64,000 nt of DNA from Candidatus Hydrogenedens sp. (GTDB lineage: Bacteria; Hydrogenedentota; Hydrogenedentia; Hydrogenedentales; Hydrogenedentaceae): assembly GCA_049968235.1 (NCBI GenBank), contig JBMFRC010000012.1, positions 33,366 through 97,365 on the forward strand, read 5' to 3'. How positions within the stretch are numbered: the first letter of the stretch is position 1; each line of letters starts with the position of its first letter. The notes beneath the pieces were generated by a model. The model ran no database searches, was not told the origin of the DNA, and saw only the letters and a list, made by a program, of their open reading frames with translations. The translations under genes and the position numbers were made by a program. Of this stretch, positions 4,737 to 58,277 are shown piece by piece.

Positions 4737-5432
4737 ATGGTATCTGAGAAAACAGTAGAAAGATTAAGTTTATACCGCCGAATACTTCAACAATTGAGGG
4801 TCGAGAGTAAAGAAACTATAATGTCCCATGAACTTGCGAATATGTTACACATAAAGCCAGCACAGGTACGCAGGGATATTATGCAATTAGGTTATTCAGG
4901 AATACCTAATAGTGGTTATAGAATTCGACCTCTTTTAGAGAGTATTGCAAATTTTTTAGATTCCCCGTTGCCTCAGAGTGCTGTTTTAGTAGGTGTTGGA
5001 CATTTAGGACTTGCGTTATTGGCTAACTTTGCAGGACGATGGAGGCAATTAGCTATTCGTGCCTCTTTTGATAAAGACCCTGCAAAAGTAGGACAGACTT
5101 TTCATGGTTGTCGTTGTTATGCTATGTGTGATTTGCAAAAAGTAATTGCGGAGACAAAAAGTGTAGTAGGCATCCTGGCAATACCGGGTGAAAGTGCCCA
5201 ATCTGTTTGTGACCTTCTTGTTCAGTCAGGTATTAGTGGCGTATTAAATTTTTCCCCATTGCGAATTAAAGTGCCTGATAATGTCTTTATAGAACATGTT
5301 GACCTTTCCGCTACGTTTGAAAAAGTTTCGTTCTTTGCAAGAAGAATGAAACATTATGCAGAAGAAGAAAAACGGAAAGTAGAAAATGAAATTACTGAGG
5401 GTGAATACGAAACATTAACAACCAATCAATAA
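4737..5432 (+). CDS. rex: Redox-sensing transcriptional repressor Rex (NADH/NAD+-responsive)
   Basis: N-terminal winged-helix with LSLYRRIL, then Rossmann GVGHLGLALLANF, then ILAIPGESAQSVCDLLVQSGISGVLNFSP. These are the canonical Rex blocks; the protein also has an acidic C-terminal tail. Confidence 0.85.
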   Translation: MVSEKTVERLSLYRRILQQLRVESKETIMSHELANMLHIKPAQVRRDIMQLGYSGIPNSGYRIRPLLESIANFLDSPLPQSAVLVGVGHLGLALLANFAGRWRQLAIRASFDKDPAKVGQTFHGCRCYAMCDLQKVIAETKSVVGILAIPGESAQSVCDLLVQSGISGVLNFSPLRIKVPDNVFIEHVDLSATFEKVSFFARRMKHYAEEEKRKVENEITEGEYETLTTNQ

Positions 5433-5458: not shown

Positions 5459-5983
5459 ATGAATGAAGAATCAAAGCATGCGTGTATGGAAGAAGCAAGT
5501 GAAGAAGAACTGCTTGCTCGGCTTGATGAAGTAATTGCAGAATATAAGGACAAGCCCGGTGCTCTTATTCCTGTTCTGCAGATTGCTCAGGCTATGTTTG
5601 GTTATCTACCCGAAAGTGCATTAAAAAAGATTAGTTTGGGACTGAACAAACCGTATAGTGAAGTTGCAGGTGTGGTAACATTTTACTCATTCTTTTCAAC
5701 CCAGCCTCGTGGAAAACATATGATTCGTGTCTGTTTAGGAACTGCTTGTTATGTCCGTGGTGGCAAACAGGTTCTTTCTGCAATTAAGGATAAACTCCAT
5801 ATTGATGTTGGAGAGACCACGAAAGACCGTATGTTCTCTTTAGAGGTGGCTCGTTGTTTTGGTGCTTGTGGGCTTGCTCCTGCCATTATGGTGGATAACG
5901 ATGTGCATCAACGGGTAAAACCTGCCCGAATTCAGGCTATTTTAGACCAGTATTTAGACAAAAACACAGAAAAAAATAAATAA
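5459..5983 (+). CDS. hndA: NuoE-like [2Fe-2S] subunit of multimeric [FeFe] hydrogenase (HndA/HydC-like)
   Basis: Thioredoxin-like 2Fe-2S fold with the Cys pattern CLGTACYVRGG ... CFGACGLAPA, typical of NuoE/HoxE/HydC. A good RBS (TAGGAGATAGAAT-ATG) precedes the start. Confidence 0.8.
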   Translation: MNEESKHACMEEASEEELLARLDEVIAEYKDKPGALIPVLQIAQAMFGYLPESALKKISLGLNKPYSEVAGVVTFYSFFSTQPRGKHMIRVCLGTACYVRGGKQVLSAIKDKLHIDVGETTKDRMFSLEVARCFGACGLAPAIMVDNDVHQRVKPARIQAILDQYLDKNTEKNK

Positions 5984-6005: not shown

Positions 6006-6377
6006 ATGTCAAATATTATTCATTCTCCAGAAGACCTTAATGCTTTACGAGAAAAGGCAATTAAGGACATTGAGATTCGTAATTCACATAAAGATTTGGT
6101 GATTACTGTTCACATGGGAACATGTGGTATTGCTGCGGGTGCCAGAGAAGTATTAAAAAATATCATCTCTGAAATTTCTGCTATAGGTATAACCAATGTT
6201 ACAGTCCGTCAATCTGGATGTGCAGGTCTCTGCGACCGTGAACCCATGATTACGGTTACTCATAAATCCTCCGGTTCTGAATATCGTTATGGAAAATTAA
6301 ACACGGAAAAGATACGAGAAATTGTGAAACAGCATATTGCAGAAGGTAAACCTGTGATGGAATATTTAATTTCCTGA
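6006..6377 (+). CDS. hndB: Thioredoxin-like [2Fe-2S] ferredoxin (HndB-like small hydrogenase subunit)
   Basis: 123 aa with cysteine motifs HMGTCGIAAGA and CAGLCDREP of 2Fe-2S Trx-like ferredoxins. It sits between the NuoE-like and NuoF-like genes, as in hnd operons. Confidence 0.7.
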   Translation: MSNIIHSPEDLNALREKAIKDIEIRNSHKDLVITVHMGTCGIAAGAREVLKNIISEISAIGITNVTVRQSGCAGLCDREPMITVTHKSSGSEYRYGKLNTEKIREIVKQHIAEGKPVMEYLIS

Positions 6378-6460
6378 TGAAGAAATACAGGGTAAATTCG
6401 GATTCCCATAAAGTGGTTGAGATGAACATGTATAGCAAAATAAGAAAGAATGATATAGAA

Positions 6461-7906
6461 ATGAAAATGAACATATTACATCTATTTCTTATTTTATTTT
6501 TATGTTCATCCGCAACCTTTACTGAAATATCTGATTGGGAAACCATCTCACTTTCGGATACAGGAGAAGCATTACAAAATCCCGGCATGGGATGGGTATT
6601 ACATTTTTACGATAATGTTCCTGAAAATTATGGTTCTAAATTAGCCCCTTCAGATACTGTTGATGAATTCCCTGCCCTTTCAGTTATTTATTTGCGAATA
6701 GCATGGTCGTTTTTAGAACCTGAAGAAGGAAAGTATAACTGGTCTATATTGGATACTCCTTCTCAACGATGGATTTCTAAAGGGAAACAAATTGCTTTGC
6801 GCATTACCTGTAGTGAAACTCCTATTCCATGGGCGACACCAAAATGGGTTTATGAAGCAGGAGCCAAAGGTAATTTCTTCATTCCTACCCAGGGGATAAA
6901 AGAAAATGGGACACATTGGGAACCCGAATTTGATGACCCTGTTTTCTTGGATAAGTTGGATAATTTTTTAGCAGTGTTAGCAAAGAGATATGATGAAAAT
7001 CCGGAAATAGCCTTCATAGATATGGGTTCATTAGGAGTGTGGGGAGAAGGTCATGTATGGCATTCCACACAAAAACATATTTCGACGGAAACCATAAAAA
7101 AACACATTGATTTGCACATAAAGCACTTTAAAAACACAATAATTGCTCTAAATGATGACCTTATCACAAATGGGCAAAAATTGGATGTAATTCCCGAAGA
7201 GAAAAAAGAACTCCTCAATTATGCTATCAAAAATGGGTTAACACTTCGCGATGATAGTATTCTTGTTCAGGGTGGAGATAATGTATATTTTAGTGCAAGC
7301 CTTGCGGAATACTTCTGGCGAAATAGACCTATCATTTTAGAATCTGAACATTATGGACCATCAAAGGCTGAAAGGCATTGGGGGGACGGAAGTAAATATT
7401 TACAGGCTGTAGAAGATTACCATGCAAGTTATACTTCTATTCATTGGTGGCCAAGGGAGTTTTTACAAGAAAACAAAGATTTGATAGATAAAATCAATCT
7501 TCGTTTGGGGTATCGTATTGTCCCTACCGAAGTTAAATGGCAAAAGACAGTAAAAATATCCGAGAAAAAATGGGATATATCCTACCGTTGGGCAAATAAA
7601 GGAGTGGCACCTTGTTATCGGGATGTATATCCCATTATTACATGGAAAGATGAGAAAGGAGGAATTGTTGCTGTTTTTACAGATGAGACATTTAATCTCA
7701 AACAATTACCAATAGGGAAGCAGGATGAATTAAAAGAAATTGAGGTAAAAAAATCTTTTTTTATTCCTTTTTTATTGAAAGAAGGAAATTATACAGTATT
7801 CATTTCAGCGGGTTCTATTACGGGCACGCCTGAAATTCAATTACCGTTAAACAACACAGACCATGAAAAAAGATATGTTATAGGTAAAGTTAATGTTGTT
7901 TTGTGA
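6461..7906 (+). CDS. Secreted TIM-barrel glycoside hydrolase-like protein (GH42/GH35-like N-terminal motif; DUF4832-like)
   Basis: Signal peptide MNILHLFLILFLCSSATF. AWSFLEPEEGKYNW matches the GH42/GH35 W-x-x-LEP-x-x-G-x-Y motif, and GSLGVWGEGH matches GH42-like blocks. The most likely start is internal, at the MKMNILH methionine at 6461. Confidence 0.5.
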   Translation: MKMNILHLFLILFLCSSATFTEISDWETISLSDTGEALQNPGMGWVLHFYDNVPENYGSKLAPSDTVDEFPALSVIYLRIAWSFLEPEEGKYNWSILDTPSQRWISKGKQIALRITCSETPIPWATPKWVYEAGAKGNFFIPTQGIKENGTHWEPEFDDPVFLDKLDNFLAVLAKRYDENPEIAFIDMGSLGVWGEGHVWHSTQKHISTETIKKHIDLHIKHFKNTIIALNDDLITNGQKLDVIPEEKKELLNYAIKNGLTLRDDSILVQGGDNVYFSASLAEYFWRNRPIILESEHYGPSKAERHWGDGSKYLQAVEDYHASYTSIHWWPREFLQENKDLIDKINLRLGYRIVPTEVKWQKTVKISEKKWDISYRWANKGVAPCYRDVYPIITWKDEKGGIVAVFTDETFNLKQLPIGKQDELKEIEVKKSFFIPFLLKEGNYTVFISAGSITGTPEIQLPLNNTDHEKRYVIGKVNVVL

Positions 7907-7977
7907 AAAAAAATATAAAGATATAAATAAAAACTTCAGAAATGAAGCATACACAAGTTATGGAAAGGAGAAAAAAA

Positions 7978-10900
7978 ATGAGTCCATTTCGAAGTCATGT
8001 ATTAATCTGTGCAGGTGCAGGATGCGTGGCATCAGGTTCGATGGAAGTAAGTTCCGCCTTTTCGGAGGCACTTGCCAAACATGGGCTAAATGAAGAAATT
8101 CAAGTAGTCCATACAGGATGTTTAGGACCCTGTGCTATTGGTCCCGTGGTCGTGATTTATCCAGATGCTATTTTTTATCAAGGTGTTAAAACAACAGATG
8201 TTGAAGATATTGTTGTTGAGCATCTGTTAAAAGGTCGGCCTGTTAGTCGCTTGAATTTCAAATCTACTACCACATCACAAATTATTCCTGCACTGCAGGA
8301 GATTGGTTTTTTCAAGCAACAGACAAAGATAGTTTTAAGGAACTGTGGTATTATAGACCCTACAAAAATTGAGGAGTATATTGCGAGAGATGGGTATCAG
8401 GCTTTAGCAAAAGTACTGACAAAAATGACTCCACAGCAGGTAGTAGAAGAAGTGAAAAAATCTGGACTTCGGGGAAGAGGTGGTGCAGGATTCCCAACAG
8501 GTATAAAGTGGGAGTTAACTCAAAAAGCCCACGGAGATAAGAAATATGTTCTTTGTAATGCTGATGAAGGTGACCCGGGCGCATTTATGGACAGAAGTGT
8601 TTTGGAAGGTGACCCCCATAGTGTTATTGAAGCTATGATTATAGCAGGATATGCCATTGGTTCTGACCAGGGATATATTTATGTTCGAGCAGAATATCCT
8701 TTAGCGGTAGAGAGATTAAATATAGCGATAAAGCAAGCCAGAGAATATGGTTTGTTAGGTAAGAATATTATGGGAACGAATTTTAATTTCGACCTTGAAA
8801 TACGAATGGGTTCAGGTGCTTTTGTGTGTGGAGAAGAAACCGCATTGATGCGTTCTATCGAAGGGAAACGCGGAGAACCCAGACCCCGTCCACCGTTCCC
8901 TGCATATAAAGGTTTATGGGAAAAACCCAGTTTATTAAATAATGTAGAAACCTATGCAAACATCCCTGTAATTATATTAAAAGGTGCTGATTGGTTTGCT
9001 TCCATAGGAACAGGTAAAAGTAAAGGAACAAAAGTGTTTGCCTTAGCAGGTGCTGTAAACAACACAGGATTGGTCGAAATTCCGATTGGTACACCATTAG
9101 GTGAAATTATTTATGATATTGGCGGTGGAATTCCGCGAGGCAAACAATTTAAGGCAGCGCAAATTGGAGGTCCTTCCGGCGGTTGTATTCCAAAACAACA
9201 TCTGAATGTGCCGGTAGATTACGAGTCATTACAGGAATTAGGAGCGATTATGGGTTCCGGTGGATTAATTGTTATGGATGAAGACACATGTATGGTCGAT
9301 ATGGCTCGTTTCTTCCTTGACTTTGTTCAGGATGAGTCATGTGGAAAATGTGTCCCATGCCGGGTCGGAACGAAAAGAATGTTGGAAATTGTGACAAGGA
9401 TTTGTGAGGGTCGGGGAGAAGAAGGCGATATTGAAAAACTTATTGAATTAGGACAACAGATTAAAGATGCATCGTTATGTGGATTAGGGCAGACAGCTCC
9501 AAACCCTGTTCTTTCTGCAATACGGCACTTCCGTGATGAATTTGAAATTCATATTCGTGAACATAAATGTCCGGCGGGTGTCTGTCCATCTCTTGTTCGT
9601 GCTCCTTGTATGAGTGCTTGCCCGGCAAATGTTTACATTCCGGGTTTTGTCTCATTAATATCTGAAAAACGATATGCGGAAGCACTTCGTGTGCATCGTG
9701 ACCAGAACCCCTTTGCATCTGTATGTGCCCGTGTGTGTTTCCATACTTGTGAGGACAAATGTAGAAGAGCTACTCTGGATGAAGCGGTATCCATACGCGG
9801 ATTGAAGCGATTTATGGTAGAGCAAGAAGTTACAATACAACTACCTGAAATTCGTGAAAATGAACAAAATCTTCGCAAAAAGGTGGCTATTATAGGAGCA
9901 GGTCCTGCAGGTCTAACCTGTGCTTATTTCCTTGCACGATTAGGCTATCAACCCCGTGTTTTTGAATCTGCACCCAGGCCCGGCGGTATGTTAGTTCAAA
10001 CAATTCCCGCTTATCGGTTACCCCGAGAAGAATTGGCTCGAGAAATTCGTATGATAGAAAGAATGGGCGTTGTCATAGAAACTGAAAAAGCCTTAGGTCG
10101 TGATTTTACATTACAAAGCCTTCGTGATGATGGATATGAGGCTATTTTTCTCGGAATAGGTGCTCCATCAGGTCAAAAATTGAGAATTCCAGGCGAAGAT
10201 GCGGATGGCGTTGTCGAAGCCATAGACTTCCTTCGTGAATACAATCTCCGTGGTTCTGTTCCTGTAGGGAAAAATGTTGTTATTATAGGAGGTGGTAATG
10301 CAGCTATTGATGCGGCAAGAACTGCCATTCGTTTAGGAGCAAAAAAAGCAACGATTCTTTACCGCAGAACAAGAGAAGAGATGCCTGCGTATAAAGAAGA
10401 GATCGAAGAAGCAGTTAATGAAGGTGTTATTTTAAAAATGTTAGTAACTCCACTGGAGATTTTGACAGAAAACGGAAAAGTTGTTGGTGTAAAATGTCAA
10501 CACATGTGGTTAGGAGAATATGACCGTTCCGGTAGAAGAAGACCTGAAGCCAAAAAGGGTGAAGAACCCTTTGTTGAAGAAGCAGACCAGGTTATTGCAG
10601 CAATAGGGCAAACTGTTGATTTAAAACGTTACCTGGATGGATTAAATGTTAAGTTAACACCTTCTGGTTTCTTGTGGGTAGACCAATTATATGGTCAGAC
10701 CTCTATTGAATGGTTATTTGCAGGTGGTGATATTAGTTCAGGTCCTTCTTCCGTAGCAGAAGCAATCGGTGCTGGTGAAAGAGCTGCAGTTGGAATTGAT
10801 AAGTATCTTACTGGAGAAGAACATGCTTTCTGGCGCGAACCCTATATGGTAGATACAGAATTTGACCCAGATTCCGACCCGGTAGATTTCCCAAGAGCAA

Positions 10901-11049
10901 AAATGAAACTTTTACCTGTTGAAAAGAGGGTACACAACTTTAATGAAGTTGAAATCCCGTTTACGGAAACATTAGCGGTAAGAGAGGCACGCCGTTGCTT
11001 ACGTTGTGATTATCGTGAAACAAAAATAAGTTTAAATACACAACAATAA
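7978..11049 (+). CDS. hndC: Fusion flavoprotein: HndC/HydB (NuoF-like, FMN/NADH, Fe-S) + GltD/NfnB-like FAD/NAD(P)H oxidoreductase domain
   Basis: The N-terminal Trx-like 2Fe-2S domain is CAGAGC...CLGPC. The NuoF blocks are GLRGRGGAGFPTGIKW, CNADEGDPGAF and 4Fe-4S CGKCVPCRVG. From about residue 540 come the GltD-like Fe-S region (CPAGVCP...CMSACP), FAD site VAIIGAGPAGLTCAY and NAD(P)H site VVIIGGGNAAIDAA. I chose the start at MSPFRSH (7978) because it has a GGAAAGGAG RBS. Confidence 0.8.
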   Translation: MSPFRSHVLICAGAGCVASGSMEVSSAFSEALAKHGLNEEIQVVHTGCLGPCAIGPVVVIYPDAIFYQGVKTTDVEDIVVEHLLKGRPVSRLNFKSTTTSQIIPALQEIGFFKQQTKIVLRNCGIIDPTKIEEYIARDGYQALAKVLTKMTPQQVVEEVKKSGLRGRGGAGFPTGIKWELTQKAHGDKKYVLCNADEGDPGAFMDRSVLEGDPHSVIEAMIIAGYAIGSDQGYIYVRAEYPLAVERLNIAIKQAREYGLLGKNIMGTNFNFDLEIRMGSGAFVCGEETALMRSIEGKRGEPRPRPPFPAYKGLWEKPSLLNNVETYANIPVIILKGADWFASIGTGKSKGTKVFALAGAVNNTGLVEIPIGTPLGEIIYDIGGGIPRGKQFKAAQIGGPSGGCIPKQHLNVPVDYESLQELGAIMGSGGLIVMDEDTCMVDMARFFLDFVQDESCGKCVPCRVGTKRMLEIVTRICEGRGEEGDIEKLIELGQQIKDASLCGLGQTAPNPVLSAIRHFRDEFEIHIREHKCPAGVCPSLVRAPCMSACPANVYIPGFVSLISEKRYAEALRVHRDQNPFASVCARVCFHTCEDKCRRATLDEAVSIRGLKRFMVEQEVTIQLPEIRENEQNLRKKVAIIGAGPAGLTCAYFLARLGYQPRVFESAPRPGGMLVQTIPAYRLPREELAREIRMIERMGVVIETEKALGRDFTLQSLRDDGYEAIFLGIGAPSGQKLRIPGEDADGVVEAIDFLREYNLRGSVPVGKNVVIIGGGNAAIDAARTAIRLGAKKATILYRRTREEMPAYKEEIEEAVNEGVILKMLVTPLEILTENGKVVGVKCQHMWLGEYDRSGRRRPEAKKGEEPFVEEADQVIAAIGQTVDLKRYLDGLNVKLTPSGFLWVDQLYGQTSIEWLFAGGDISSGPSSVAEAIGAGERAAVGIDKYLTGEEHAFWREPYMVDTEFDPDSDPVDFPRAKMKLLPVEKRVHNFNEVEIPFTETLAVREARRCLRCDYRETKISLNTQQ

Positions 11050-11066: not shown

Positions 11067-12839
11067 ATGCCAAAATTAACTATAGATGGAATTCCCGTAG
11101 AAGTTCCGGAAGGAACAACAATACTTCAAGCGGCAAAGCAAATAGGATTAAAAATACCGACACTTTGTTATCTTGAAGAAGTTCAAGCCATCGGTGCCTG
11201 TCGTGTTTGCGTTGTTGAAGTTGAAGGAGCACGAACTTTGGTCGCTTCTTGTGTTGCTCCTGTTGCGGAAGGAATGAAAGTCCATACAAATTCAAAAAGA
11301 GCCCGTGAGGCACGAAAAACAGTTGTAGAATTGTTACTATCCGACCATGATGGCGATTGCCAGATTTGTGTTCGAAATGAAGATTGTGAACTTCAGGAAT
11401 TGGCACGAACACTTGGGATAAAGGAAATTCGCTATCAAGGTGAGAAGAGAAAACGGATTGTGGATGAAAGCACTCCCGCTGTTGTTCGTGATACATCGAA
11501 ATGTGTCTTATGTAGAAGATGTATAACGGTTTGCAATGAGGTTCAGGGTGTTGGCGGACTGTTCCCACAAAATCGTGGCTTTGAAACGGTAATAGGTCCC
11601 GCATTTTGTAGTGATTTGGATGATGTCGTATGTGTTCAGTGTGGTCAATGTAGTGCGGTTTGTCCTGTGGGTGCTATTGTAGAAAGAGACCAGATTGCGG
11701 ATGTCTTTTCTGCATTAGATGACCCGACAAAAACAGTCGTTGTCCAGACAGCCCCTGCAATTCGTGCCGCATTGGGAGAATGTTTTGGTTTACCACCCGG
11801 AACTTTAGTAACAGGGAAGATGGTTACCGCACTTCGTAGACTGGGTTTCCATGCCGTTTTTGATACTAACTTTGCCGCTGACCTTTGTATTATGGAAGAA
11901 GGTACAGAACTGCTAACTCGATTGAAGAAAAAACTGGTAGATGGGGAGAATATTGCTCTTCCTATGTTTACCAGTTGTTCTCCGGGGTGGATTAAGTTTT
12001 TAGAACATTTCTACCCGGATATGATTCCAAATGTATCTACATGCAAATCCCCACAGCAAATGTTTGGTGCTATAGCAAAGACCTATTATTCCAAGAAAAT
12101 TGGTAAGAAACCCGAAGATATTGTTGTTGTTTCTATTATGCCCTGTACAGCGAAGAAATATGAACATCAGCGTCCCGAGATGAACAGTTCCGGTGTTCGT
12201 GATGTGGACTATGTGCTTACAACGCGTGAATTGGGTCGGATGATAAAACAGGCAGGCATTGATTTTGTAAATCTACCCGATGACAAGCAAGACTCACCAT
12301 TAGGACTATCCTCTGGTGCTGCGGATATTTTTGCGAATACCGGGGGTGTTATGGAAGCGGCAATTCGAACTGTTTATGAAATAGTAACAGGACGCGAATT
12401 ACCATTCGATGGACTTCATGTTGCTCCTATCGAAGGATTAGAAGGAATCAAGGAAGCCTCCTTGAAGATAGAAAAATGTGTGCCTGAATGGTCTTTCTTA
12501 GAAGGGGCTACCGTAAATGTTGCTGTGGCTCATGGATTGGGTAATGCCAGAGCATTAATAGAGCGAGTTCGCTCAGGTGAAAAGGCGTATCACTTTATAG
12601 AAATTATGACCTGTCCCGGTGGATGTATTGGTGGAGGAGGACAACCTCGCTTTACAGATAATTCAGTTCGTCTTGCTCGTATTCAGGCCATATACAAAGA
12701 GGATGAAGGGAAACAACTTCGTAAGTCCCATGTAAATCCTGACATACAAAAATTGTATAAGGAATTTTTAGGACATCCGAATAGTGAAGTTTCACATCAT
12801 CTATTACATACGCATTACAATCCGAGAACAAAAGTATAA
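11067..12839 (+). CDS. hydA: [FeFe]-hydrogenase catalytic subunit (HydA/HndD) with N-terminal 2Fe-2S and 4Fe-4S ferredoxin domains; non-canonical L1 motif TSCSPGW
   Basis: The N-terminal plant-type 2Fe-2S is CYLEE...CRVC, and the 4Fe-4S Fd motifs are CVLCRRCITVC and CVQCGQCSAVCP. For the H-cluster, L2 is MPCTAKKYE and L3 is EIMTCPGGCIGGGGQP, both canonical. L1 reads FTSCSPGW where TSCCPxW is expected. Confidence 0.9.
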   Translation: MPKLTIDGIPVEVPEGTTILQAAKQIGLKIPTLCYLEEVQAIGACRVCVVEVEGARTLVASCVAPVAEGMKVHTNSKRAREARKTVVELLLSDHDGDCQICVRNEDCELQELARTLGIKEIRYQGEKRKRIVDESTPAVVRDTSKCVLCRRCITVCNEVQGVGGLFPQNRGFETVIGPAFCSDLDDVVCVQCGQCSAVCPVGAIVERDQIADVFSALDDPTKTVVVQTAPAIRAALGECFGLPPGTLVTGKMVTALRRLGFHAVFDTNFAADLCIMEEGTELLTRLKKKLVDGENIALPMFTSCSPGWIKFLEHFYPDMIPNVSTCKSPQQMFGAIAKTYYSKKIGKKPEDIVVVSIMPCTAKKYEHQRPEMNSSGVRDVDYVLTTRELGRMIKQAGIDFVNLPDDKQDSPLGLSSGAADIFANTGGVMEAAIRTVYEIVTGRELPFDGLHVAPIEGLEGIKEASLKIEKCVPEWSFLEGATVNVAVAHGLGNARALIERVRSGEKAYHFIEIMTCPGGCIGGGGQPRFTDNSVRLARIQAIYKEDEGKQLRKSHVNPDIQKLYKEFLGHPNSEVSHHLLHTHYNPRTKV

Positions 12840-12964: not shown

Positions 12965-13360
12965 ATGGAAAATAAAATTATAATGGTCGTTGATGATGAT
13001 ATTGATGTTCAGGATTTCTGTAAAATTGTATTAGGAAGAGAGGATTATCAGGTTATAACATTTTCCAACTCAGAGAGTGCACTCGAATATTTATCGTCGA
13101 ACACTCCCTCTGTAATTATTACCGATTTAATGATGGGTGGAATTGATGAGGGTGTCCAATTTGTTAATAAGATTAGAGGATTCGATAATGAGAAGGCAAA
13201 AATTCCAATTATAATGATTACAGGCATAAATTCAAAATTAGGATATGACATCACTCCCCGTTCCGATGAAGAAAAAAAACAAATGAAAATCGATGAATTT
13301 ATATCAAAACCTTTAAATCCAAAACAGTTAATAACAGCACTAAAAAAAGTAATCAAATAG
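12965..13360 (+). CDS. Single-domain response regulator (CheY-like receiver only)
   Basis: 131 aa with acidic pocket VVDDD, a phospho-acceptor in SVIITDLMMGG and a conserved K in FISKP. There is no output domain. Confidence 0.75.
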   Translation: MENKIIMVVDDDIDVQDFCKIVLGREDYQVITFSNSESALEYLSSNTPSVIITDLMMGGIDEGVQFVNKIRGFDNEKAKIPIIMITGINSKLGYDITPRSDEEKKQMKIDEFISKPLNPKQLITALKKVIK

Positions 13361-13412: not shown

Positions 13413-14810
13413 ATGAGTTCAAATGTAGAAACTGTTCCTATTAATGAGGAATTTATTTTTGATACTTTAAAAAATAGTGTCAAGAAAGATGCGGTTTACA
13501 TCAAAGAAATTCTTGCAAAAGCCCTTGAATTAAAGGGATTAGATGCGACAGAAGTAGCCACGCTTGCAACAATAAGTGACCCTGACCTGTTAAAAGAACT
13601 TTTCGATACAGCCCGAAAAGTCAAAGAGGAGATTTACGGTAAACGATTAGTTCTTTTTGCCCCACTTTATGTATCAAATCTTTGCAAGAATGAATGCTTA
13701 TATTGTGCTTTCCGTAAAAGTAACAAGATGGTTCGTAGAAAAGCATTGACACAAGAAGAAGTCCGTAGAGAGGTTGAAACATTGGTTGACCAGGGGCATA
13801 AACGCATTCTATTAGTGGCAGGCGAGTCCTATCCTTCCGAAGGATTTGATTATGTTATTCATTGTATCGAAACAATATATAGTGTAAAGCGGGATAGGGG
13901 AGAGATACGACGCGTAAATGTGAATATAGCACCCTTATCGTTAGAGGAATTTAAAAGGCTGAAATCAGCAAAAATTGGGACATATCAGTTATTTCAAGAA
14001 ACATACCACAGAGAAACATACCAAAAAGTCCATGTAGGTGGACTTAAAAAGGATTTTGACTGGAGAATTACCGCTATGGACCGTGCTATGAAAGCTGGCA
14101 TTGATGATGTGGGTGTTGGCGTTCTTTTTGGCTTATTTGATTGGAGATTTGAAATACTTGCTTTAATGCAACATATTAAACATTTAGAAGATACCTTCGG
14201 TGTAGGATGTCACACGATAAGTGTACCTCGCCTTGAACCTGCTATAGGTTCAGACCTGGCTTCACATCCCCCTTATCCGGTATCAGACCTTGATTTCAGA
14301 AAAATTGTAGCTATACTAAGACTTGCTGTGCCCTATACAGGAATAATAATGTCCACTCGTGAAACTCCCAATATACGAAGAGAAACCTTTGCACTGGGTG
14401 TATCACAAATATCAGCAGGCAGTAGAACGAATCCAGGTGGGTATACAGGCAGTGAAGAAGAGGATATGAGCCAATTCTCATTAGGTGACCATCGCAGTCT
14501 GGATGAGGTTATTCGTGATGTTACAAAATTAGGTTATATCCCATCCTTCTGCACGGCTTGTTATCGTTTAGGCAGAACAGGTGCTGACTTTATGGACCTT
14601 GCCAAGCCGGGTCTTATCAAGAACCATTGTGAAGTTAATGCTTTAAGCACTTTTGCTGAATATCTGGAAGATTATGCATCCTCCGAAACAAAACAAATAG
14701 GTTGGGCAAAGATTGAGGAAATTTTAAATACAATGCCTGAAGTTCGGAAAAAACGTACCGAAGGGATGTTGGCTCGTGTAAAAGCCGGTGAACGGGATGT
14801 ATATGTGTAA
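13413..14810 (+). CDS. hydG: [FeFe]-hydrogenase maturase HydG (radical SAM tyrosine lyase)
   Basis: The radical SAM motif is CKNECLYCAF. The C-terminal auxiliary-cluster motif CTACYR...(22)...HC (Cx2Cx22C) separates HydG from ThiH. A length of about 465 aa fits. Confidence 0.9.
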   Translation: MSSNVETVPINEEFIFDTLKNSVKKDAVYIKEILAKALELKGLDATEVATLATISDPDLLKELFDTARKVKEEIYGKRLVLFAPLYVSNLCKNECLYCAFRKSNKMVRRKALTQEEVRREVETLVDQGHKRILLVAGESYPSEGFDYVIHCIETIYSVKRDRGEIRRVNVNIAPLSLEEFKRLKSAKIGTYQLFQETYHRETYQKVHVGGLKKDFDWRITAMDRAMKAGIDDVGVGVLFGLFDWRFEILALMQHIKHLEDTFGVGCHTISVPRLEPAIGSDLASHPPYPVSDLDFRKIVAILRLAVPYTGIIMSTRETPNIRRETFALGVSQISAGSRTNPGGYTGSEEEDMSQFSLGDHRSLDEVIRDVTKLGYIPSFCTACYRLGRTGADFMDLAKPGLIKNHCEVNALSTFAEYLEDYASSETKQIGWAKIEEILNTMPEVRKKRTEGMLARVKAGERDVYV

Positions 14811-14815
14811 ATCTT

Positions 14816-16237
14816 ATGTCAGACTACCGAATTGAAACCGACTTATTGGGTGAAAAAAAGATACCTGCGGATGTCTATTGGGGTATACATACTGCTCGTG
14901 CAGTAGAAAATTTTCCTGTTTCCCGACTCTCGGTTCATTCAGAATTAATCCAATCTTATGGAATTGTAAAACTTGCATGTGCAAAAATAAATTATTCGTT
15001 AGGATACTTATTACATCCTCCTGATAAATCATCTGCCATATTTAACGCTTGCGAAGAAGTAGCAATTGGTAAATGGAATGACCATATTATCGTGGATGCT
15101 CTACAGGGTGGAGCAGGAACCAGCACAAATATGAATATTAATGAGGTTATTGCCAACCGTGCCCTAGAAATATTGGGCTTACCACGGGCAAAATATGACA
15201 TTATTTCCCCATTAGATGATATAAATCTTCACCAATCGACTAACGATACTTATCCTACCGCCCTGAAACTTGCTACGATAAGGATGTTAAGAAAATTAGA
15301 ATCAGAAATTATTCTTCTTTTAGAGACATTTCAAACACTTGAAAAACAATTTTCGGACATAGTAAAAATTGGAAGGACAGAACTTCAAGATGCAACGCCT
15401 ATTACATTAGGTAGGGAGATGGGTGCTTATGCAGATGCCCTAGTAAGAGACCGTTGGCGTATCTATAAGTGTGAAGAAAGATTGCGAGTAGTTAATTTAG
15501 GAGGCACCGCAATAGGAACAGGTTTAGGAGCACCAAGGGATTATATTTTCCGTGTTGTAGATAATCTGCGAGAGTTATCAAATATCGGTTTTTCGCGAGC
15601 AGAAAATTTAGTAGATGCAACTCAAAATCTCGATGTATTTGGGGAAGTATCAGGTATCATTCGTTCCTATGCCATAACGCTTAATAAAATAGCCAATGAT
15701 TTGAGACTAATGTCATCCGGACCCGAAGCAGGTCTCCGTGAAATTCAACTTCCACAATTACAAGCGGGTTCATCTATTATGCCAGGGAAAGTGAACCCTG
15801 TTTTGCCTGAAGCGGTATGCCAGGTTGCAATGCTAACATTTGGATTCGACCAGATTATCACATATGGCTGTTCTTCCGGAAACCTTGAACTAAATCCTTT
15901 TGTCCCTTTGATTGCTCATTGTTTGTTAAATATGATTGAAATGTTAACAAATGTAACAAAATTATTTACGGAAAAATGTATTAAAGGAATTTCGCCGAAC
16001 CGAGAGGTTTGTGTTTCCTATGTGAATAATTCTACAGCAACTCTAACCGCACTTATACAGAAGATAGGATATGAAAAAGCATGTATGATTGCTAAAAAAA
16101 CAAGTAATTTGAAAAAGAGTATTCGAGAAATTGTATTGGAAGAAGGAGTTTTGACTCCTGAAGAATTTGATACTCTTTTAAGTCCTGAGTCCGTTTGTAA
16201 ATTAGGATTTGTTGACACCAGTAATGAGATAGATTAG
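14816..16237 (+). CDS. aspA: Aspartate ammonia-lyase (aspartase/fumarase class II family) homolog embedded in hyd maturase cluster
   Basis: RIETDLLGEKKIPADVYWGIHTARAVENF, QGGAGTSTNMNINEVIAN and the signature GSSIMPGKVNP match aspartase closely and are closer to AspA than to FumC. Confidence 0.8.
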   Translation: MSDYRIETDLLGEKKIPADVYWGIHTARAVENFPVSRLSVHSELIQSYGIVKLACAKINYSLGYLLHPPDKSSAIFNACEEVAIGKWNDHIIVDALQGGAGTSTNMNINEVIANRALEILGLPRAKYDIISPLDDINLHQSTNDTYPTALKLATIRMLRKLESEIILLLETFQTLEKQFSDIVKIGRTELQDATPITLGREMGAYADALVRDRWRIYKCEERLRVVNLGGTAIGTGLGAPRDYIFRVVDNLRELSNIGFSRAENLVDATQNLDVFGEVSGIIRSYAITLNKIANDLRLMSSGPEAGLREIQLPQLQAGSSIMPGKVNPVLPEAVCQVAMLTFGFDQIITYGCSSGNLELNPFVPLIAHCLLNMIEMLTNVTKLFTEKCIKGISPNREVCVSYVNNSTATLTALIQKIGYEKACMIAKKTSNLKKSIREIVLEEGVLTPEEFDTLLSPESVCKLGFVDTSNEID

Positions 16238-17508: not shown

Positions 17509-18561
17509 ATGGATAAAAAAAATATTATTAATTGGCTTCGTGAAAAAAACGAAGATAAATTAAACGAACTATGGGAATTGGCGGATTCTATCCGCAGTAA
17601 ATATGTAGGAGAAGAGGTGCATCTTCGAGGTTTGATAGAAATATCAAACTATTGCAAAAAAAACTGTCTATACTGTGGAATACGAATTTCTAATAGAAAA
17701 TTAACCCGATATAGAATGGAAGACAGCGAGATTTTGGAATGTGTGGAATTTGCCAAAAGAAATGGCTATGGAACAATAGTCCTTCAATCCGGCGAAGACC
17801 CCGATTTTACAAAAGAAAAAATCGCCGAATTAATTAGAAAAATAAAAGAAAATGCAAATGTGGCTATTACATTAAGTTTAGGAGAGCAGGAAAAACACAC
17901 ATTAGAATTATGGAAATCTGCCGGAGCCAATCGTTATCTTCTTCGTTTTGAAACCTCAGATGAAATCCTATTTAAAAGAATCCATTCGTCAGAACAAGCA
18001 AAAAGTTTAGAGAATAGAATTAAACAACTAAAAATACTTAAACAATTAGGCTACGAAGCAGGAAGTGGGATAATGATTGGAATACCCTATCAAACTTATG
18101 AAAGCATCGCTAATGATATCCTACTTTTCAAACAATTAGACCTTGATATGATAGGAATAGGACCATACATTCCTCATCCCGATACACCTTTAGGACAGGA
18201 ATATCTTAATAAATATAAAAAAGATGATGAAAAATTTGTCCCAAACACAGAATTAATGACATATAAAGTCCTTGCATTAACCCGAATTATATGTCCAACC
18301 GTAAACATTCCTGCCACCACTGCCCTTGCAACTGTGAATACACGAGAAGGTCGCATTTTAGCCCTGAAGAGGGGAGCCAATGTTATCATGCCGAATCTCA
18401 CTCCACCAAAATATAAAAAATTGTATGAAATTTATCCAGGTAAATCGTCTGCTGATGAACCTCCAGAAATTATTCATCAAAGTATAATGAAGATTATAGA
18501 AAAGGCAGGAAGAAAAGTAGGAACAGGGATGGGAAATCGCAAAAAAATCATAGATATTTAA
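17509..18561 (+). CDS. hydE: [FeFe]-hydrogenase maturase HydE (radical SAM, BioB-like)
   Basis: CKKNCLYCG radical SAM motif, a BioB-like TIM barrel length of 350 aa, and a position at the end of the hydG-hydF cluster. Confidence 0.85.
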   Translation: MDKKNIINWLREKNEDKLNELWELADSIRSKYVGEEVHLRGLIEISNYCKKNCLYCGIRISNRKLTRYRMEDSEILECVEFAKRNGYGTIVLQSGEDPDFTKEKIAELIRKIKENANVAITLSLGEQEKHTLELWKSAGANRYLLRFETSDEILFKRIHSSEQAKSLENRIKQLKILKQLGYEAGSGIMIGIPYQTYESIANDILLFKQLDLDMIGIGPYIPHPDTPLGQEYLNKYKKDDEKFVPNTELMTYKVLALTRIICPTVNIPATTALATVNTREGRILALKRGANVIMPNLTPPKYKKLYEIYPGKSSADEPPEIIHQSIMKIIEKAGRKVGTGMGNRKKIIDI

Positions 18562-23602: not shown

Positions 23603-26404
23603 ATGAATCAAGAGAAAAAAACTATTCATGTAGTTGTCAACACACATTGGGATAGAGAATGGGTTTATCCATTTGAAGAAACGCGATTATTATTGGTTGA
23701 GTTTATGGACCAATTAATCCAAATTTTAAAAAATGACTCGGATTTCCATTCTTTTACATTGGATTCACAAACGGTGTGTCTTGAAGATTATCTCGAATTG
23801 AGACCTGAGAAAAGAGAAGATATTGTAACCTTGGTTAAATCTGGAAAACTTATAATCGGTCCGTGGTATTCTCTGCCAGAAGAATTTATTGTTAATGGCG
23901 AATCATTAGTTCGTAATCTATTAATTGGGCATCGTGTCGCTCAATCTTTCGGAAAAGTTTCAAAAATTGGATATACTCCTTTCAGTTATGGGCAAACTTC
24001 TCAAATGCCACAAATTTATAACGGGTTTGGTATAGATACCATTATTTTTTATCGCGGGATTAATACCCCTAAAAGCGAATTTATTTTTGAAGGAGCCGAT
24101 GGTTCAAGATTATTAGGGATGCGCTTTGGGTGTTTGAGTCGTTTTAGTTATTACATTTATGTTTATAGAGTGTTGCGATACGGTTCAGACGATGTTTATG
24201 CTTTTTATAATTGGGATAGGGGGGCTGGTCCTTTCCGTCTTGCCTCATCTAACAGACCTCGGGCTCATTATTATATTACAGACCCTTCCAACAAAATGTG
24301 GAATGTAGAACCCATTCGGGAACAACTACAGAAATTAATTAAAGATGAGTCCCAACATTTCACTACGCCTCATATATGTTGTATGGAAGGGTTTGATAGT
24401 TCAGCACCGGATGAAAAAGAGTCCGAAATTATTAAATTATGTCAAAAACTTCTAACAGACCATGAAATTCGTCTATCAAATTTAGAAGAATTTATGAACG
24501 CAATGCGTAAATATGTAAAAAATCCCCCAGTAATTTATGGGGAAAGTAGAGACCCGGGAGCAACAGGGAAATGGACACACCTTATGGGAGATGTTATTAG
24601 TGCCCGATTCCGTGTTAAAAAGGCAAACCACCAATCGGAGATGATTTTACAAAGGGGAGCGGAACCTTGGTGTGCCATATCAAATATATTAGGTAAAGAA
24701 TATTTTAGAAGTGCATTGACAAGAGCATGGAAACTTTTACTACAAAATCATCCCCACGACACAATCACAGGTGGTGGTATAGACCAGATGGAAAAAGATG
24801 CTATATCAAGAGCAGAGCAAGTGTCTATTATAAGTGATGGACTAATGCGTCGAGCACTTCAGCATGTTTATTCCCGTATTAATTTATCTGATATATCACC
24901 TAAAGAAAGTGTTCTGGTTGTTTTTAACTCAAGTCCTTTTGAGCGACAACAAGTCATATCCACATATATTGATATACCAGATAATATGGGTTATGAATCA
25001 TTCCAGATTATAAATCCAGATACTAACACACCATGTAAGTTACAAATACAACAACAATTTGAAACAGGGACACTTGTAAGAAATCTTCAGGATATTTCTA
25101 TTGAATTGAGGTCAAAACGATTCTTAACTTATATAGATGTGGGAAATATACCAGCATTAGGTTATAAAACTTTCTATATTAAGCCTGCTGAAGATACGCC
25201 CGTTACGGAGGACAACAATATCTATAAATCTCCATTTATACTTGAAAATGAATACCTTTTAGTTTCTTTTAATAATGATGGAACTTTTGACCTTCTAAAC
25301 AAAGAAACAAATGATAAGTTTTATAATTTGCATTATTTTGAGGATACCGGAGAAACAGGACATTCTTGGATACACATGGAACCTGATGAAAATGAAACGA
25401 TATATTCTCATGGAAGCCCTGCTAAATTTGTTGTAGAAGTTACGGGTCCCTTATTATCTCGTGTTAGAGTTGATTATGTGTTAATGATACCATCCGGTCT
25501 TGAAAGAGATATAACCGAATTGGACAGAGAAGCAGAGAAAAATCATACGCAAAGAAAAAAAGAAAAAGTAGCATTAGAAATTTCAAGTTATTTTACTTTA
25601 AGAAAAGGTAGTCGTCAATTAGAAATTATCACAAAAGTAAAAAATAATGCTAAAAACCACCGATTAAGAGTTATATTCCCTACAGGTATAAAAAAAGCGA
25701 CACATAGTTTTGCAGAAGTTGCGTATGATGTCGTTAAAAGACCTATTCATATTTCTCCGGAGAATCCCTATTACGGTAAGCCAAATCCCCAATACCCGAT
25801 GCATCGTTTTGTAGATGTATCAGACGAAAGGATGGGGCTTGCAATATTAAATAACTCGGGGTTAAGAGAATATGAAGTTATGGATGAACCTATACATCCA
25901 GTTGCCATAACACTTTTCCGTGCATTTACATTCAGAAATGCACCTATTTTCGGAAGGTGGGATGTCTATCCGGAAATGGAATTATCTCAGTGTTTAGGAG
26001 AACTTGAGTTTTCTTACGCTGTTTACCCACACAAAGGAAACTGGGAAAATGGTGTTATTAAGGAAGCGGAAAAACTAAATGTAAACTTAGAACCTGTTCA
26101 GGCAGGTCCAATAAAAGGAGGTTCATTGCCTCTATCCTATAGTTTTATAGAGATAGAAGGAAGTAATTTACAGGTTAATGCCATAAAAATAGCAGAAGAT
26201 AAAGAGAAAACTTTGATTGTAAGATTCTTTAATCCTTCGGATAAAGAAGTGATAAGCACTATAAAATTCGGTTTTCCTGTGCAAAGTATATGGATGACAA
26301 ATTTGAATGAAGAAGCAATCAAAAAAATCTCAGAAAAGGAACAAACAGTAGAAATAAAAATTAAAGCGAAAAAGATAATTACTTTAGCGATTGAATTTAT
26401 TTAA
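23603..26404 (+). CDS. Glycoside hydrolase family 38 alpha-mannosidase (cytoplasmic)
   Basis: The N-terminal HVVVNTHWDREW motif (GH38 H-x-H-x-D metal site), 933 aa, and no signal peptide. Confidence 0.8.
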   Translation: MNQEKKTIHVVVNTHWDREWVYPFEETRLLLVEFMDQLIQILKNDSDFHSFTLDSQTVCLEDYLELRPEKREDIVTLVKSGKLIIGPWYSLPEEFIVNGESLVRNLLIGHRVAQSFGKVSKIGYTPFSYGQTSQMPQIYNGFGIDTIIFYRGINTPKSEFIFEGADGSRLLGMRFGCLSRFSYYIYVYRVLRYGSDDVYAFYNWDRGAGPFRLASSNRPRAHYYITDPSNKMWNVEPIREQLQKLIKDESQHFTTPHICCMEGFDSSAPDEKESEIIKLCQKLLTDHEIRLSNLEEFMNAMRKYVKNPPVIYGESRDPGATGKWTHLMGDVISARFRVKKANHQSEMILQRGAEPWCAISNILGKEYFRSALTRAWKLLLQNHPHDTITGGGIDQMEKDAISRAEQVSIISDGLMRRALQHVYSRINLSDISPKESVLVVFNSSPFERQQVISTYIDIPDNMGYESFQIINPDTNTPCKLQIQQQFETGTLVRNLQDISIELRSKRFLTYIDVGNIPALGYKTFYIKPAEDTPVTEDNNIYKSPFILENEYLLVSFNNDGTFDLLNKETNDKFYNLHYFEDTGETGHSWIHMEPDENETIYSHGSPAKFVVEVTGPLLSRVRVDYVLMIPSGLERDITELDREAEKNHTQRKKEKVALEISSYFTLRKGSRQLEIITKVKNNAKNHRLRVIFPTGIKKATHSFAEVAYDVVKRPIHISPENPYYGKPNPQYPMHRFVDVSDERMGLAILNNSGLREYEVMDEPIHPVAITLFRAFTFRNAPIFGRWDVYPEMELSQCLGELEFSYAVYPHKGNWENGVIKEAEKLNVNLEPVQAGPIKGGSLPLSYSFIEIEGSNLQVNAIKIAEDKEKTLIVRFFNPSDKEVISTIKFGFPVQSIWMTNLNEEAIKKISEKEQTVEIKIKAKKIITLAIEFI

Positions 26405-33445: not shown

Positions 33446-33544
33446 AAAACTTATAACTACTATTTCACAATAAATAGAAAGTTACAAATAACATCAACAC
33501 AAATATAAATGATAAAATTAGATATAAAAAAAGAAGGGAAGAAT

Positions 33545-37852: not shown

Positions 37853-40980
<3,128 letters not shown>

Positions 40981-56451: not shown

Positions 56452-58270
<1,819 letters not shown>

Positions 58271-58277
58271 TTAAATC

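What the first reader, a model, noticed from the sequence alone, without database searches (positions are those of the whole stretch)
11940..12010. HydA H-cluster motif L1 reads TSCSPGW instead of TSCCPxW (single-base TGT to TCT)
The DNA at 11968-11991 reads ttt acc agt tgt tct ccg ggg tgg, which translates FTSCSPGW. L2 (MPCTAKKYE) and L3 (EIMTCPGGCIGGGGQP) are canonical. In CpI numbering the second Cys of L1 (C300) is a ligand of the H-cluster [4Fe-4S] cubane and the first (C299) is the proton-relay Cys. If that mapping holds, a Ser at the C300 position is a substitution in a cluster ligand, which is rare and would affect cluster potential or function. Because the full maturase set is adjacent, the enzyme is presumably functional. 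This could be a lineage-specific variant, such as a sensory or otherwise atypical group, or an assembly error.
Basis: partly seen in the sequence, partly recalled or inferred. Interest (0 to 1): 0.65.

Follow-up and report, generated by a model that had tools for sequence, protein, structure and literature searches.

The report
Known serine variant of hydrogenase H-cluster ligand
The [FeFe]-hydrogenase gene in this window really does encode serine where textbooks show a cluster-binding cysteine, but this is a common, conserved and already published natural variant found in an active, structurally solved enzyme, so it is neither an error nor a new discovery.

Summary
HydA (11067..12839, +) reads F301-T-S-C304-S305-P-G-W308, and Ser305 is encoded by tct at 11979-11981.

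Ungapped alignments to CpI, T. kivui HydA and A. woodii HydA1 place Ser305 at CpI C300, the cubane ligand. They place Cys304 at C299, the proton relay.

The variant is not rare and not an artefact:
- The best PDB hit, A. woodii HydA1 (7Q4V), has the same TSCSPGW.
- Katsyv et al. 2023 describe its Ser301 as replacing a cubane Cys ligand in an active enzyme with a normal infrared signature.
- Kertess et al. 2017 note Ser at this position in about 20% of putative hydrogenase sequences.
- Here, 112 of 120 close homologues, 25 of 150 diverse cluster representatives (against 90 TSCCP) and 71 motifs in 80 genomic loci from more than 10 phyla read TSCSP.
- All six Ser codons are used.

The other three Cys ligands, the proton pathway and the H-cluster pocket are invariant, and HydG, HydF and HydE lie adjacent. 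The protein passes the NCBIfam cut-off for group A6, and nothing suggests a sensory type.

Ser is coupled to Gly at +2 and usually to a non-Ala residue before C499 (Thr in this window). The partner HydB is fused to a GltD-like module, a widespread architecture for which I found no description.

The parts
11067..12839 (+). hydA: 590-aa M3-type [FeFe]-hydrogenase catalytic subunit ([2Fe-2S] domain, NuoG-type 4Fe-4S region, 4Fe-4S ferredoxin-type domain, H-domain, small-subunit-like tail)
   Evidence: Pfam PF13510, PF10588, PF12838, PF02906 (1.1e-98) and PF02256. NCBIfam NF040763 scores 907 bits against a cut-off of 765. PDB 7q4v_A matches at E 2.5e-194.
11967..11990 (+). L1 motif FTSCSPGW (F301-W308)
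   Evidence: The alignment to CpI FTSCCPGW, T. kivui FTSCCPSW and A. woodii ITSCSPGW has no gap here.
11976..11978 (+). Cys304 (tgt), equivalent to CpI C299, the proton-relay cysteine
   Evidence: Alignment. Cys is invariant at this position in the 95 Ser-type and 107 Cys-type sequences, which were selected to carry it.
11979..11981 (+). Ser305 (tct), equivalent to CpI C300, CrHydA1 C115, T. kivui C299 and A. woodii S301: the fourth ligand position of the [4Fe-4S]H cubane
   Evidence: The position is Ser in 71 motifs from 80 related loci, using TCG, TCT, TCC, TCA, AGC and AGT.
11985..11987 (+). Gly307 (CpI G302), coupled to the Ser
   Evidence: Gly in 93 of 95 Ser-type sequences against 42 of 107 Cys-type sequences. 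The Ser side has Gly in 13 of 14 sister-lineage contrasts.
12138..12164 (+). L2 motif MPCTAKKYE (Cys360 = CpI C355 ligand; Met358 = M353; Lys363 = K358)
12600..12647 (+). L3 motif EIMTCPGGCIGGGGQP (Cys516 = C499; Cys520 = C503, the bridging Cys; Met514 = M497)
12609..12611 (+). Thr515 (CpI A498), the residue before ligand C499 and the column most strongly associated with the Ser state
   Evidence: Ser-type: T 61, A 13, G 11, C 10 of 95. Cys-type: A 91 of 107. The 7-tip Cys 'revertant' clade has Ala here.
7942..11049 (+). hydB: 1035-aa fusion of a NuoF-like flavoprotein (2Fe-2S thioredoxin-like domain, FMN domain, SLBB, 4Fe-4S) with a C-terminal GltD/NfnB-like module (Fer4_20 and Pyr_redox_2)
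   Evidence: The fusion is present in 54 related loci.
5459..5983 (+). hydC (NuoE-like, thioredoxin-like [2Fe-2S])
   Evidence: PF01257 at 1.9e-51. Present in 39 of 40 full-length loci.
6006..6377 (+). Small 2Fe-2S thioredoxin-like protein (HndB-like)
   Evidence: Marginal PF01257 match, 24.4 bits against a cut-off of 24.8. Present in 16 of 40 loci.
4737..5432 (+). Rex-like redox-sensing regulator upstream of the operon
   Evidence: PF06971 and PF02629.
13413..14810 (+). hydG maturase
   Evidence: TIGR03955, 539.8 bits against a cut-off of 312.
14816..16237 (+). Aspartate ammonia-lyase-like gene inside the maturase cluster
   Evidence: NF008909, 629 bits against a cut-off of 510. The association of ammonia-lyase genes with hyd operons is published (PMC11736057).
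16247..17500 (+). hydF maturase GTPase
   Evidence: TIGR03918, 556.7 bits against a cut-off of 325.
17509..18561 (+). hydE maturase
   Evidence: TIGR03956, 330.9 bits against a cut-off of 254.

Best explanation
This is a genuine, selectively maintained 'Ser-type' [FeFe]-hydrogenase. HydA is a group A, M3-architecture catalytic subunit of a HydABC-like NAD(P)-linked complex. The fourth ligand position of the H-cluster [4Fe-4S] cubane (CpI C300) is serine instead of cysteine.

Shown here or in the cited papers:
- The residue mapping.
- The wide, ancient and recurrent occurrence of the Ser.
- Complete conservation of the other three Cys ligands, the proton-relay Cys and the proton pathway.
- The published activity and normal infrared signature of the A. 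woodii enzyme that carries the same Ser.

Inferred:
- In this protein Ser305 O-gamma, probably as serinate, coordinates the fourth cubane iron. Cys304 keeps its proton-relay role, and the enzyme turns over H2 normally.
- The shorter Ser side chain and Fe-O bond are accommodated by a flexible L1 loop (Gly307 at +2) and, in most members, by a changed residue before ligand C499 (Thr515 here). These changes may fine-tune the cluster rather than disable it.
For: - Sequence and frame.
- Ungapped alignments to CpI, T. kivui HydA and A. woodii HydA1, the last reading ITSCSPGW.
- Kertess 2017 (PMC5855289): Ser at this position in about 20% of sequences. The numbering C115 = second L1 Cys was verified against the PDB sequence.
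- 112 of 120 close homologues are TSCSPxW. Among 150 diverse representatives, 25 are TSCSP and 90 TSCCP.
- 71 TSCSP motifs in 80 loci from more than 10 phyla, using all six Ser codons.
- The window falls in a 95-tip clade that is 87% Ser.
- E279, E282, R286, C299, S319, C355, C499, C503, M353, K358 and M497 are invariant or nearly so in Ser-type sequences.
- NF040763 and the HydG, HydF and HydE models all score above cut-off.
- Coupling with G302 and position 498.
Against: - No coordinates or spectroscopy exist for this protein.
- The A. woodii map is at 3.4 A, which fixes the residue position but not an Fe-O bond.
- Engineered C115S in CrHydA1 lost the cubane and all activity. CrHydA1 already has Gly at 302 and Ala at 498, the same combination as A. 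woodii, so the coupled residues I found cannot be a sufficient explanation for tolerance.
- The covariation is partly confounded by phylogeny, and the tree is a simple NJ tree without support values.
- I could not measure the 3D distance between residues 498 and 300.
Confidence: 0.85

Rival explanations
1. Three-cysteine cubane. Ser305 does not bind iron. The fourth iron is ligated by water or hydroxide, or is only hydrogen-bonded to Ser, giving a site-differentiated [4Fe-4S]H.
For: The 3.4 A map cannot distinguish this from direct ligation. Kertess 2017 discuss solvent coordination for Ala variants and state that natural Ser coordination of [4Fe-4S] clusters was unknown at that time. Engineered C115S did not hold the cluster.
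Against: Katsyv 2023 model and describe Ser301 as the ligand. Among sequences that keep Cys299, I saw only Ser as the alternative to Cys at this position. Ser is strictly maintained through all six codons, which argues for a specific role of the hydroxyl.
Confidence: 0.1
2. Ligand shift. The neighbouring Cys304 (the C299 position) takes over as cubane ligand, and the proton relay is rewired.
For: [quoted passage not shown]
Against: The whole proton pathway (E279, E282, R286, S319 and C299) is as conserved in Ser-type as in Cys-type sequences. That would not be expected if the relay Cys had been diverted. A. woodii HydABC has activities and infrared bands similar to the Cys-type T. kivui enzyme. 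No indel accompanies the change.
Confidence: 0.04
3. Sequencing or assembly error, or a recent inactivating point mutation (TGT to TCT).
For: The change is a single base away from Cys. The exact protein is not on record elsewhere, and reads are not available.
Against: The nearest relatives (91-96% identity: L066, L006, L044, L047) carry TCT or TCC. 71 motifs in 80 loci and 112 of 120 homologues have Ser. The ORF is intact, with all other motifs and the maturases present.
Confidence: 0.01

Closest known systems
Acetobacterium woodii HydA1 of the electron-bifurcating HydABC complex (PDB 7Q4V, 7Q4W, 8A5E; Katsyv et al. 2023)
   Same: Best PDB match (E 2.5e-194, full length). Same M3 domain architecture and the same L1 core TSCSPGW, with Ser at the cubane-ligand position and Gly at +2. 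L2, L3 and the proton pathway are intact, and NuoF-like and NuoE-like partner genes are present.
   Different: A. woodii has Ala before C499 (ELMACPGGC), whereas the window has Thr (EIMTCPGGC). In the window, HydB carries a C-terminal GltD/NfnB-like module; the published descriptions of HydABC that I read mention none. The window operon also carries Rex, a small HndB-like protein and a glycosidase-like ORF.
Cys-type group A hydrogenases: Clostridium pasteurianum CpI (3C8Y) and Thermoanaerobacter kivui HydA (8A6T)
   Same: Same fold, same accessory-cluster domains, the same L2 and L3 patterns and the same proton pathway. The alignments are collinear.
   Different: They have Cys at the fourth ligand position (TSCCP) and Ala at position 498.
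Engineered CrHydA1 C115S (Kertess et al. 2017)
   Same: The same chemical substitution at the same ligand position. The numbering was verified.
   Different: The engineered variant lost most of the [4Fe-4S] cluster and had no detectable [2Fe] insertion or activity. Natural Ser-type enzymes are maintained by selection, and the A. woodii one is active.
NCBIfam NF040763, 'NADH-dependent [FeFe] hydrogenase, group A6'
   Same: The window HydA scores 907 bits against a cut-off of 765 over the full model. Many close homologues carry this name.
   Different: The name predicts NADH dependence from HydA alone. The fused NADPH-type GltD module in HydB suggests that the cofactor specificity may differ. 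This was not tested.
Stn / NfnABC (Nfn-Bfu) transhydrogenases. This comparison concerns only the side observation on HydB.
   Same: They combine NuoE-like and NuoF-like subunits with a GltD/NfnB-like NADPH module.
   Different: There the GltD-like module is fused to the NuoG-like subunit. Here it is fused to the NuoF-like subunit, and the NuoG-like HydA keeps a complete H-domain.

Membership tests
[FeFe]-hydrogenase catalytic subunit, group A (M3 type) | H-domain (PF02906) with a small-subunit-like C-terminus (PF02256) and N-terminal F-cluster domains | tested here: met
   PF02906 at 1.1e-98, PF02256 at 8.6e-26, plus PF13510, PF10588 and PF12838. TIGR02512 scores 532.6 bits against a cut-off of 406.
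[FeFe]-hydrogenase catalytic subunit, group A (M3 type) | Strict L1 consensus TSCCPxW (both cysteines) | tested here: not met
   The window reads TSCSPGW. This strict consensus is not truly defining. The solved, active A. woodii HydA1 has the same Ser, and about 20% of sequences do. Membership therefore stands.
[FeFe]-hydrogenase catalytic subunit, group A (M3 type) | L2 MPCxxKxxE and L3 ExMxCxxGCxxGGGxP, which carry the three other Cys ligands | tested here: met
   MPCTAKKYE and EIMTCPGGCIGGGGQP. C355, C499 and C503 align.
[FeFe]-hydrogenase catalytic subunit, group A (M3 type) | Catalytic proton-transfer pathway (CpI C299, E279, S319, E282, R286) | tested here: met
   All five residues are present in the window, and they are at least 99% conserved in Ser-type sequences.
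[FeFe]-hydrogenase catalytic subunit, group A (M3 type) | HydE, HydF and HydG maturases available | tested here: met
   TIGR03956, TIGR03918 and TIGR03955 all score above cut-off, and the genes lie immediately downstream.
[FeFe]-hydrogenase catalytic subunit, group A (M3 type) | H2 oxidation or evolution activity | not testable with these tools
   This needs purified enzyme.
NCBIfam NF040763 (group A6) | Full-length score above the curated cut-off | tested here: met
   907.2 bits against 765; model positions 2-571 of 571 matched.
Ser-type H-cluster (A. woodii HydA1-like) | Ser aligned without gaps to the L1 cubane-ligand Cys | tested here: met
Ser-type H-cluster (A. woodii HydA1-like) | Direct Fe-O(Ser) coordination | not testable with these tools
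   No coordinates can be obtained with these tools, and the published map is at 3.4 A.
Putative sensory [FeFe]-hydrogenases (groups C and D) | PAS or other signalling domain, and loss of the proton-relay Cys or proton pathway | tested here: not met
   Pfam finds no PAS or signalling domain. The proton pathway is intact.
Electron-bifurcating HydABC (HydDB group A3) | Adjacent NuoF-like HydB and NuoE-like HydC | tested here: met
   The HydDB rule is quoted.
Electron-bifurcating HydABC (HydDB group A3) | HydB C-terminal 2x[4Fe-4S] domain, proposed as the ferredoxin branch, and ferredoxin-coupled bifurcation | tested here: inconclusive
   After the NuoF core comes a Fer4_20 (DPD-type dicluster) domain plus a Pyr_redox_2 GltD-like module, not a plain ferredoxin domain. 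Whether ferredoxin is a substrate is unknown.

The most novel reading that the evidence does not exclude
Ser300, Gly302 and Thr498 (CpI numbering) form a co-evolved first- and second-sphere package that retunes the [4Fe-4S]H subcluster. The package characterises a large, uncharacterised, multi-phylum clade of hybrid Hyd/Nfn-like complexes: HydC, HydB fused to GltD, and HydA. These complexes may couple H2 to NADP(H) as well as, or instead of, NAD(H) and ferredoxin. If so, the Ser is an adaptive tuning element that could be transplanted to engineer catalytic bias, which would explain why the bare C-to-S swap failed in CrHydA1.
Probability: 0.12. Interest if true: 0.55.

Novelty: already known. 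Interest (0 to 1): 0.2.

Why it matters
As a discovery it matters little. The Cys-to-Ser ligand variant is documented in the literature, present in a solved structure and widespread in databases, and this protein is 94-96% identical to proteins already deposited.

Two points keep some residual value:

1. The chemistry of a serine-ligated H-cluster has barely been studied. I found one remark in a 3.4 A cryo-EM paper, while the engineered equivalent fails. The survey here offers concrete hypotheses for why nature tolerates the Ser: all six Ser codons are used, Cys and Ser have interconverted repeatedly, Gly at +2 is near-obligatory, and position 498 is usually not Ala.

2. For annotation pipelines, TSCSPxW should not be treated as a broken L1 motif.

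Tried and rejected
- A full-text search for the string 'TSCSP' found nothing relevant to hydrogenases.
- The supplement of Katsyv 2023 (Fig. S4i) is not held, so I could not read any Ser-Fe distance.
- An exact-sequence look-up of the window HydA, used as a proxy for read support, found no record. Close relatives were used instead.
- I considered Cys326 (CpI position 321, STCKSPQQ) as a compensating thiolate. I rejected it because Cys is common there in both classes, 92% against 65%.
- I considered Gly302 plus residue 498 as a sufficient explanation for Ser tolerance. I rejected it because CrHydA1 already has Gly and Ala at these positions, like A. woodii, yet C115S fails.
- I looked for a second, canonical HydA paralogue in the window and found none.
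- An Rfam scan of the window gave no hits.
- I did not run AlphaFold. The tool returns no coordinates and does not model metal clusters, so it could not answer whether Ser reaches the iron.
- Four searches for a published HydB-GltD fusion found nothing.

Full report
OBSERVATION. The DNA reads ttt acc agt tgt tct ccg ggg tgg. It lies in frame in a 590-aa ORF at 11067..12839 on the + strand. The Ser codon tct is at 11979-11981. L2 (MPCTAKKYE, from 12138) and L3 (EIMTCPGGCIGGGGQP, from 12600) are present. The protein has the full M3 architecture: a [2Fe-2S] domain, a NuoG-type 4Fe-4S region, a ferredoxin-type 4Fe-4S domain, the H-domain (PF02906, 1.1e-98) and a small-subunit-like tail.

MAPPING. 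phmmer against PDB sequences aligns the protein end to end with A. woodii HydA1 (7q4v_A, E 2.5e-194), T. kivui HydA1 (8a6t_A) and C. pasteurianum CpI. There is no gap within or immediately flanking L1. CpI FTSCCP ends at P301, so window Cys304 is C299 and Ser305 is C300. Two papers confirm which Cys is the ligand. Katsyv et al. 2023 name the second L1 Cys of T. kivui (Cys299Tk) as a cubane ligand. Kertess et al. 2017 treat C115 as the ligand and 'neighbouring cysteine 114' as the other. I verified on the PDB sequence 2n0s_A that C114 and C115 are the L1 pair, C170 is the L2 Cys, and C362 and C366 are the L3 pair.

THE VARIANT IS ALREADY KNOWN. The best PDB hit itself reads ITSCSPGW. [quoted passage not shown] They found this surprising because their engineered C115S, C115D and C115A variants of CrHydA1 lost most of the cubane and all activity.

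DISTRIBUTION MEASURED HERE. Of the 120 closest homologues (76-94% identity), 111 read TSCSPGW, 1 reads TSCSPAW and 7 read TSCCPAW. Among the best 150 representatives of 50%-identity clusters, 25 read TSCSP and 90 read TSCCP. That sample is ranked by similarity to a Ser-type query, so it is biased towards Ser, but it agrees with the published figure of about 20%. In 80 genomic loci I found 71 TSCSP motifs. The record titles name Hydrogenedentota, Planctomycetota, Lentisphaerota, Verrucomicrobiota, Spirochaetota, Bacteroidota, Bacillota, Synergistaceae, Omnitrophica, Fibrobacterota and others. The Ser is encoded by all six codons: TCG 38, TCT 10, AGC 8, TCC 7, TCA 6 and AGT 2. The nearest relatives (91-96% identity) use TCT or TCC. 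This excludes an assembly error and shows long-term purifying selection for Ser.

PHYLOGENY. An NJ tree of 221 H-domains places the window in a 95-tip clade that is 87% Ser. That clade contains nested Cys lineages, which look like reversions, and further Ser lineages lie outside it. Parsimony requires about 18 Cys-Ser changes. This is a rough tree without support values, so I take only the qualitative point that the exchange happened repeatedly and in both directions.

FUNCTIONAL STATE. In the 95 Ser-type sequences, the other three ligands (C355, C499, C503) and the pocket residues M353, K358, M497 and P231 are 100% conserved. The proton pathway residues E279, E282, R286 and S319 are 99-100% conserved. 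All of these residues are present in the window. HydG, HydF and HydE lie directly downstream and score above the equivalog cut-offs. The protein passes the curated cut-off of NF040763, 'NADH-dependent [FeFe] hydrogenase, group A6'. There is no PAS or other signalling domain, so the 'sensory group' idea is not supported.

MECHANISM. The best-supported reading is that Ser305 O-gamma occupies the fourth cubane coordination site, while Cys304 remains the proton relay. This is inferred from the A. woodii structure and spectroscopy and from the conservation pattern. It is not proven at atomic level, because the A. woodii map is at 3.4 A.

COVARIATION. Comparing Ser-type and Cys-type sequences column by column, the strongest association is with the residue before ligand C499 (CpI A498). 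In the Ser type it is T 61, A 13, G 11 and C 10 of 95. In the Cys type it is Ala in 91 of 107. A second association is with +2 in L1 (CpI G302), which is Gly in 93 of 95 Ser-type sequences against 42 of 107 Cys-type sequences. In 14 sister-lineage contrasts the Ser side has Gly302 in 13. A 7-tip Cys 'revertant' clade nested among Ser/Gly/Thr sequences is Cys/Ala/Ala, so all three positions switched together. The window has the majority Ser/Gly/Thr combination, while A. woodii has Ser/Gly/Ala.

INTERPRETATION OF THE COVARIATION. A plausible reading is that the shorter Ser side chain and Fe-O bond require the L1 loop to move closer to the cluster, which Gly at +2 would permit. This is inference only. 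The coupling is also not sufficient to explain tolerance: CrHydA1 already has Gly302 and Ala498, so C115S recreates the A. woodii combination and still fails. I could not measure 3D distances with these tools. Cys326 (CpI position 321) is not a specific compensation, because Cys is common there in both classes.

CONTEXT. The operon is: a Rex-like regulator (4737..5432), HydC (5459..5983), a small 2Fe-2S protein (6006..6377), a 509-aa ORF with weak glycosidase-like matches (6377..7906), HydB (7942..11049), HydA, a response regulator (12965..13360), HydG, an AspA-like lyase, HydF and HydE.

THE HydB FUSION. HydB is a 1035-aa fusion of a NuoF-like flavoprotein with a C-terminal GltD/NfnB-like module made of Fer4_20 and Pyr_redox_2. 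The fusion is present in 54 related loci, and the HydC, HydB-GltD and HydA core occurs in 39-40 of 40 full-length loci. It is not strictly linked to the Ser. Seven Ser-type loci have a plain NuoF-like HydB and three Cys-type loci have the fusion. HydDB's rule would classify the enzyme as group A3 because NuoF is present, although it also carries the group A2 hallmark. In the characterised Stn and NfnABC enzymes the GltD-like module is fused to the NuoG-like subunit instead. Four searches found no description of the HydB-GltD fusion. This is the most interesting thing in the neighbourhood, but it is not the finding under review.

VERDICT. The variant is a common, conserved and published natural alternative, not a rare anomaly, a sensory-type feature or an error. 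Novelty: already known. Interest is low (0.2). The residual value lies in the barely studied chemistry of the serine-ligated H-cluster and in the coupled-residue pattern reported here.

Noticed in passing
window 7942-11049 (+): HydB is a 1035-aa fusion of a NuoF-like flavoprotein with a C-terminal GltD/NfnB-like NADPH/FAD module (Fer4_20 and Pyr_redox_2). The fusion is conserved in 54 related loci across many phyla. It combines the HydDB group A3 (NuoF) and A2 (GltD) hallmarks. Four literature searches found no description of it. It may define an uncharacterised NADP(H)-linked Hyd/Nfn hybrid.
   Followed up: partly
window 6377-7906 (+): A 509-aa ORF with weak GH42 and DUF4832 matches is inserted between the hndB-like gene and hydB. 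It is found only in the window's closest relatives (3 of 40 full-length loci: L066, L006, L044). Its role in a hydrogenase operon is unexplained.
   Followed up: partly
window 14816-16237 (+): An aspartate ammonia-lyase-like gene sits between hydG and hydF. This fits the published association of ammonia-lyases with hyd maturase operons, where they supply nitrogen for the dithiomethylamine bridge (PMC11736057).
   Followed up: partly
window 4737-5432 (+) and 12965-13360 (+): A Rex-like redox-sensing regulator lies upstream of hydC, and a stand-alone response-regulator receiver protein lies between hydA and hydG. The receiver is conserved in the closest relatives, L066 and L006 (82% identity).
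   Followed up: no
L007, L017, L018, L020, L022, L046, L076; P0126, P0129, P0175: Ten Ser-type HydA sequences carry Cys at the CpI-498 position, immediately before ligand C499 (a Cys-Cys pair in L3). This could provide a substitute thiolate for the missing L1 Cys. The window itself does not have it.
   Followed up: no
P0229, P0243, P0195, P0201 (diverse representatives): These HydA-like proteins have L1 reading TSFSP, TSYSP, SSASP or SSSSP, so both the proton-relay Cys and the ligand Cys are missing. They may be non-catalytic HydA-like subunits.
   Followed up: no
L029, L033, L038, L040, L068: Several related loci encode a second HydA within about 6 kb. It reads ITTCCPSW in L029, L033 and L038, and ITSCSPGW in L040 and L068. 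Ser-type and Cys-type hydrogenases can therefore coexist side by side in one genome.
   Followed up: no
window 1-64000: The window has 34.6% G+C and no Rfam hit at gathering thresholds. It also encodes two GH38 mannosidase-like proteins (23603-26404 and 33509-36031), LigA (37862-39901), a 1205-aa subtilase (50713-54330, minus strand) and ATP synthase alpha/beta-family subunits (56867-60679, minus strand). The closest genomes are uncultured MAGs, several labelled Hydrogenedentota.
   Followed up: partly
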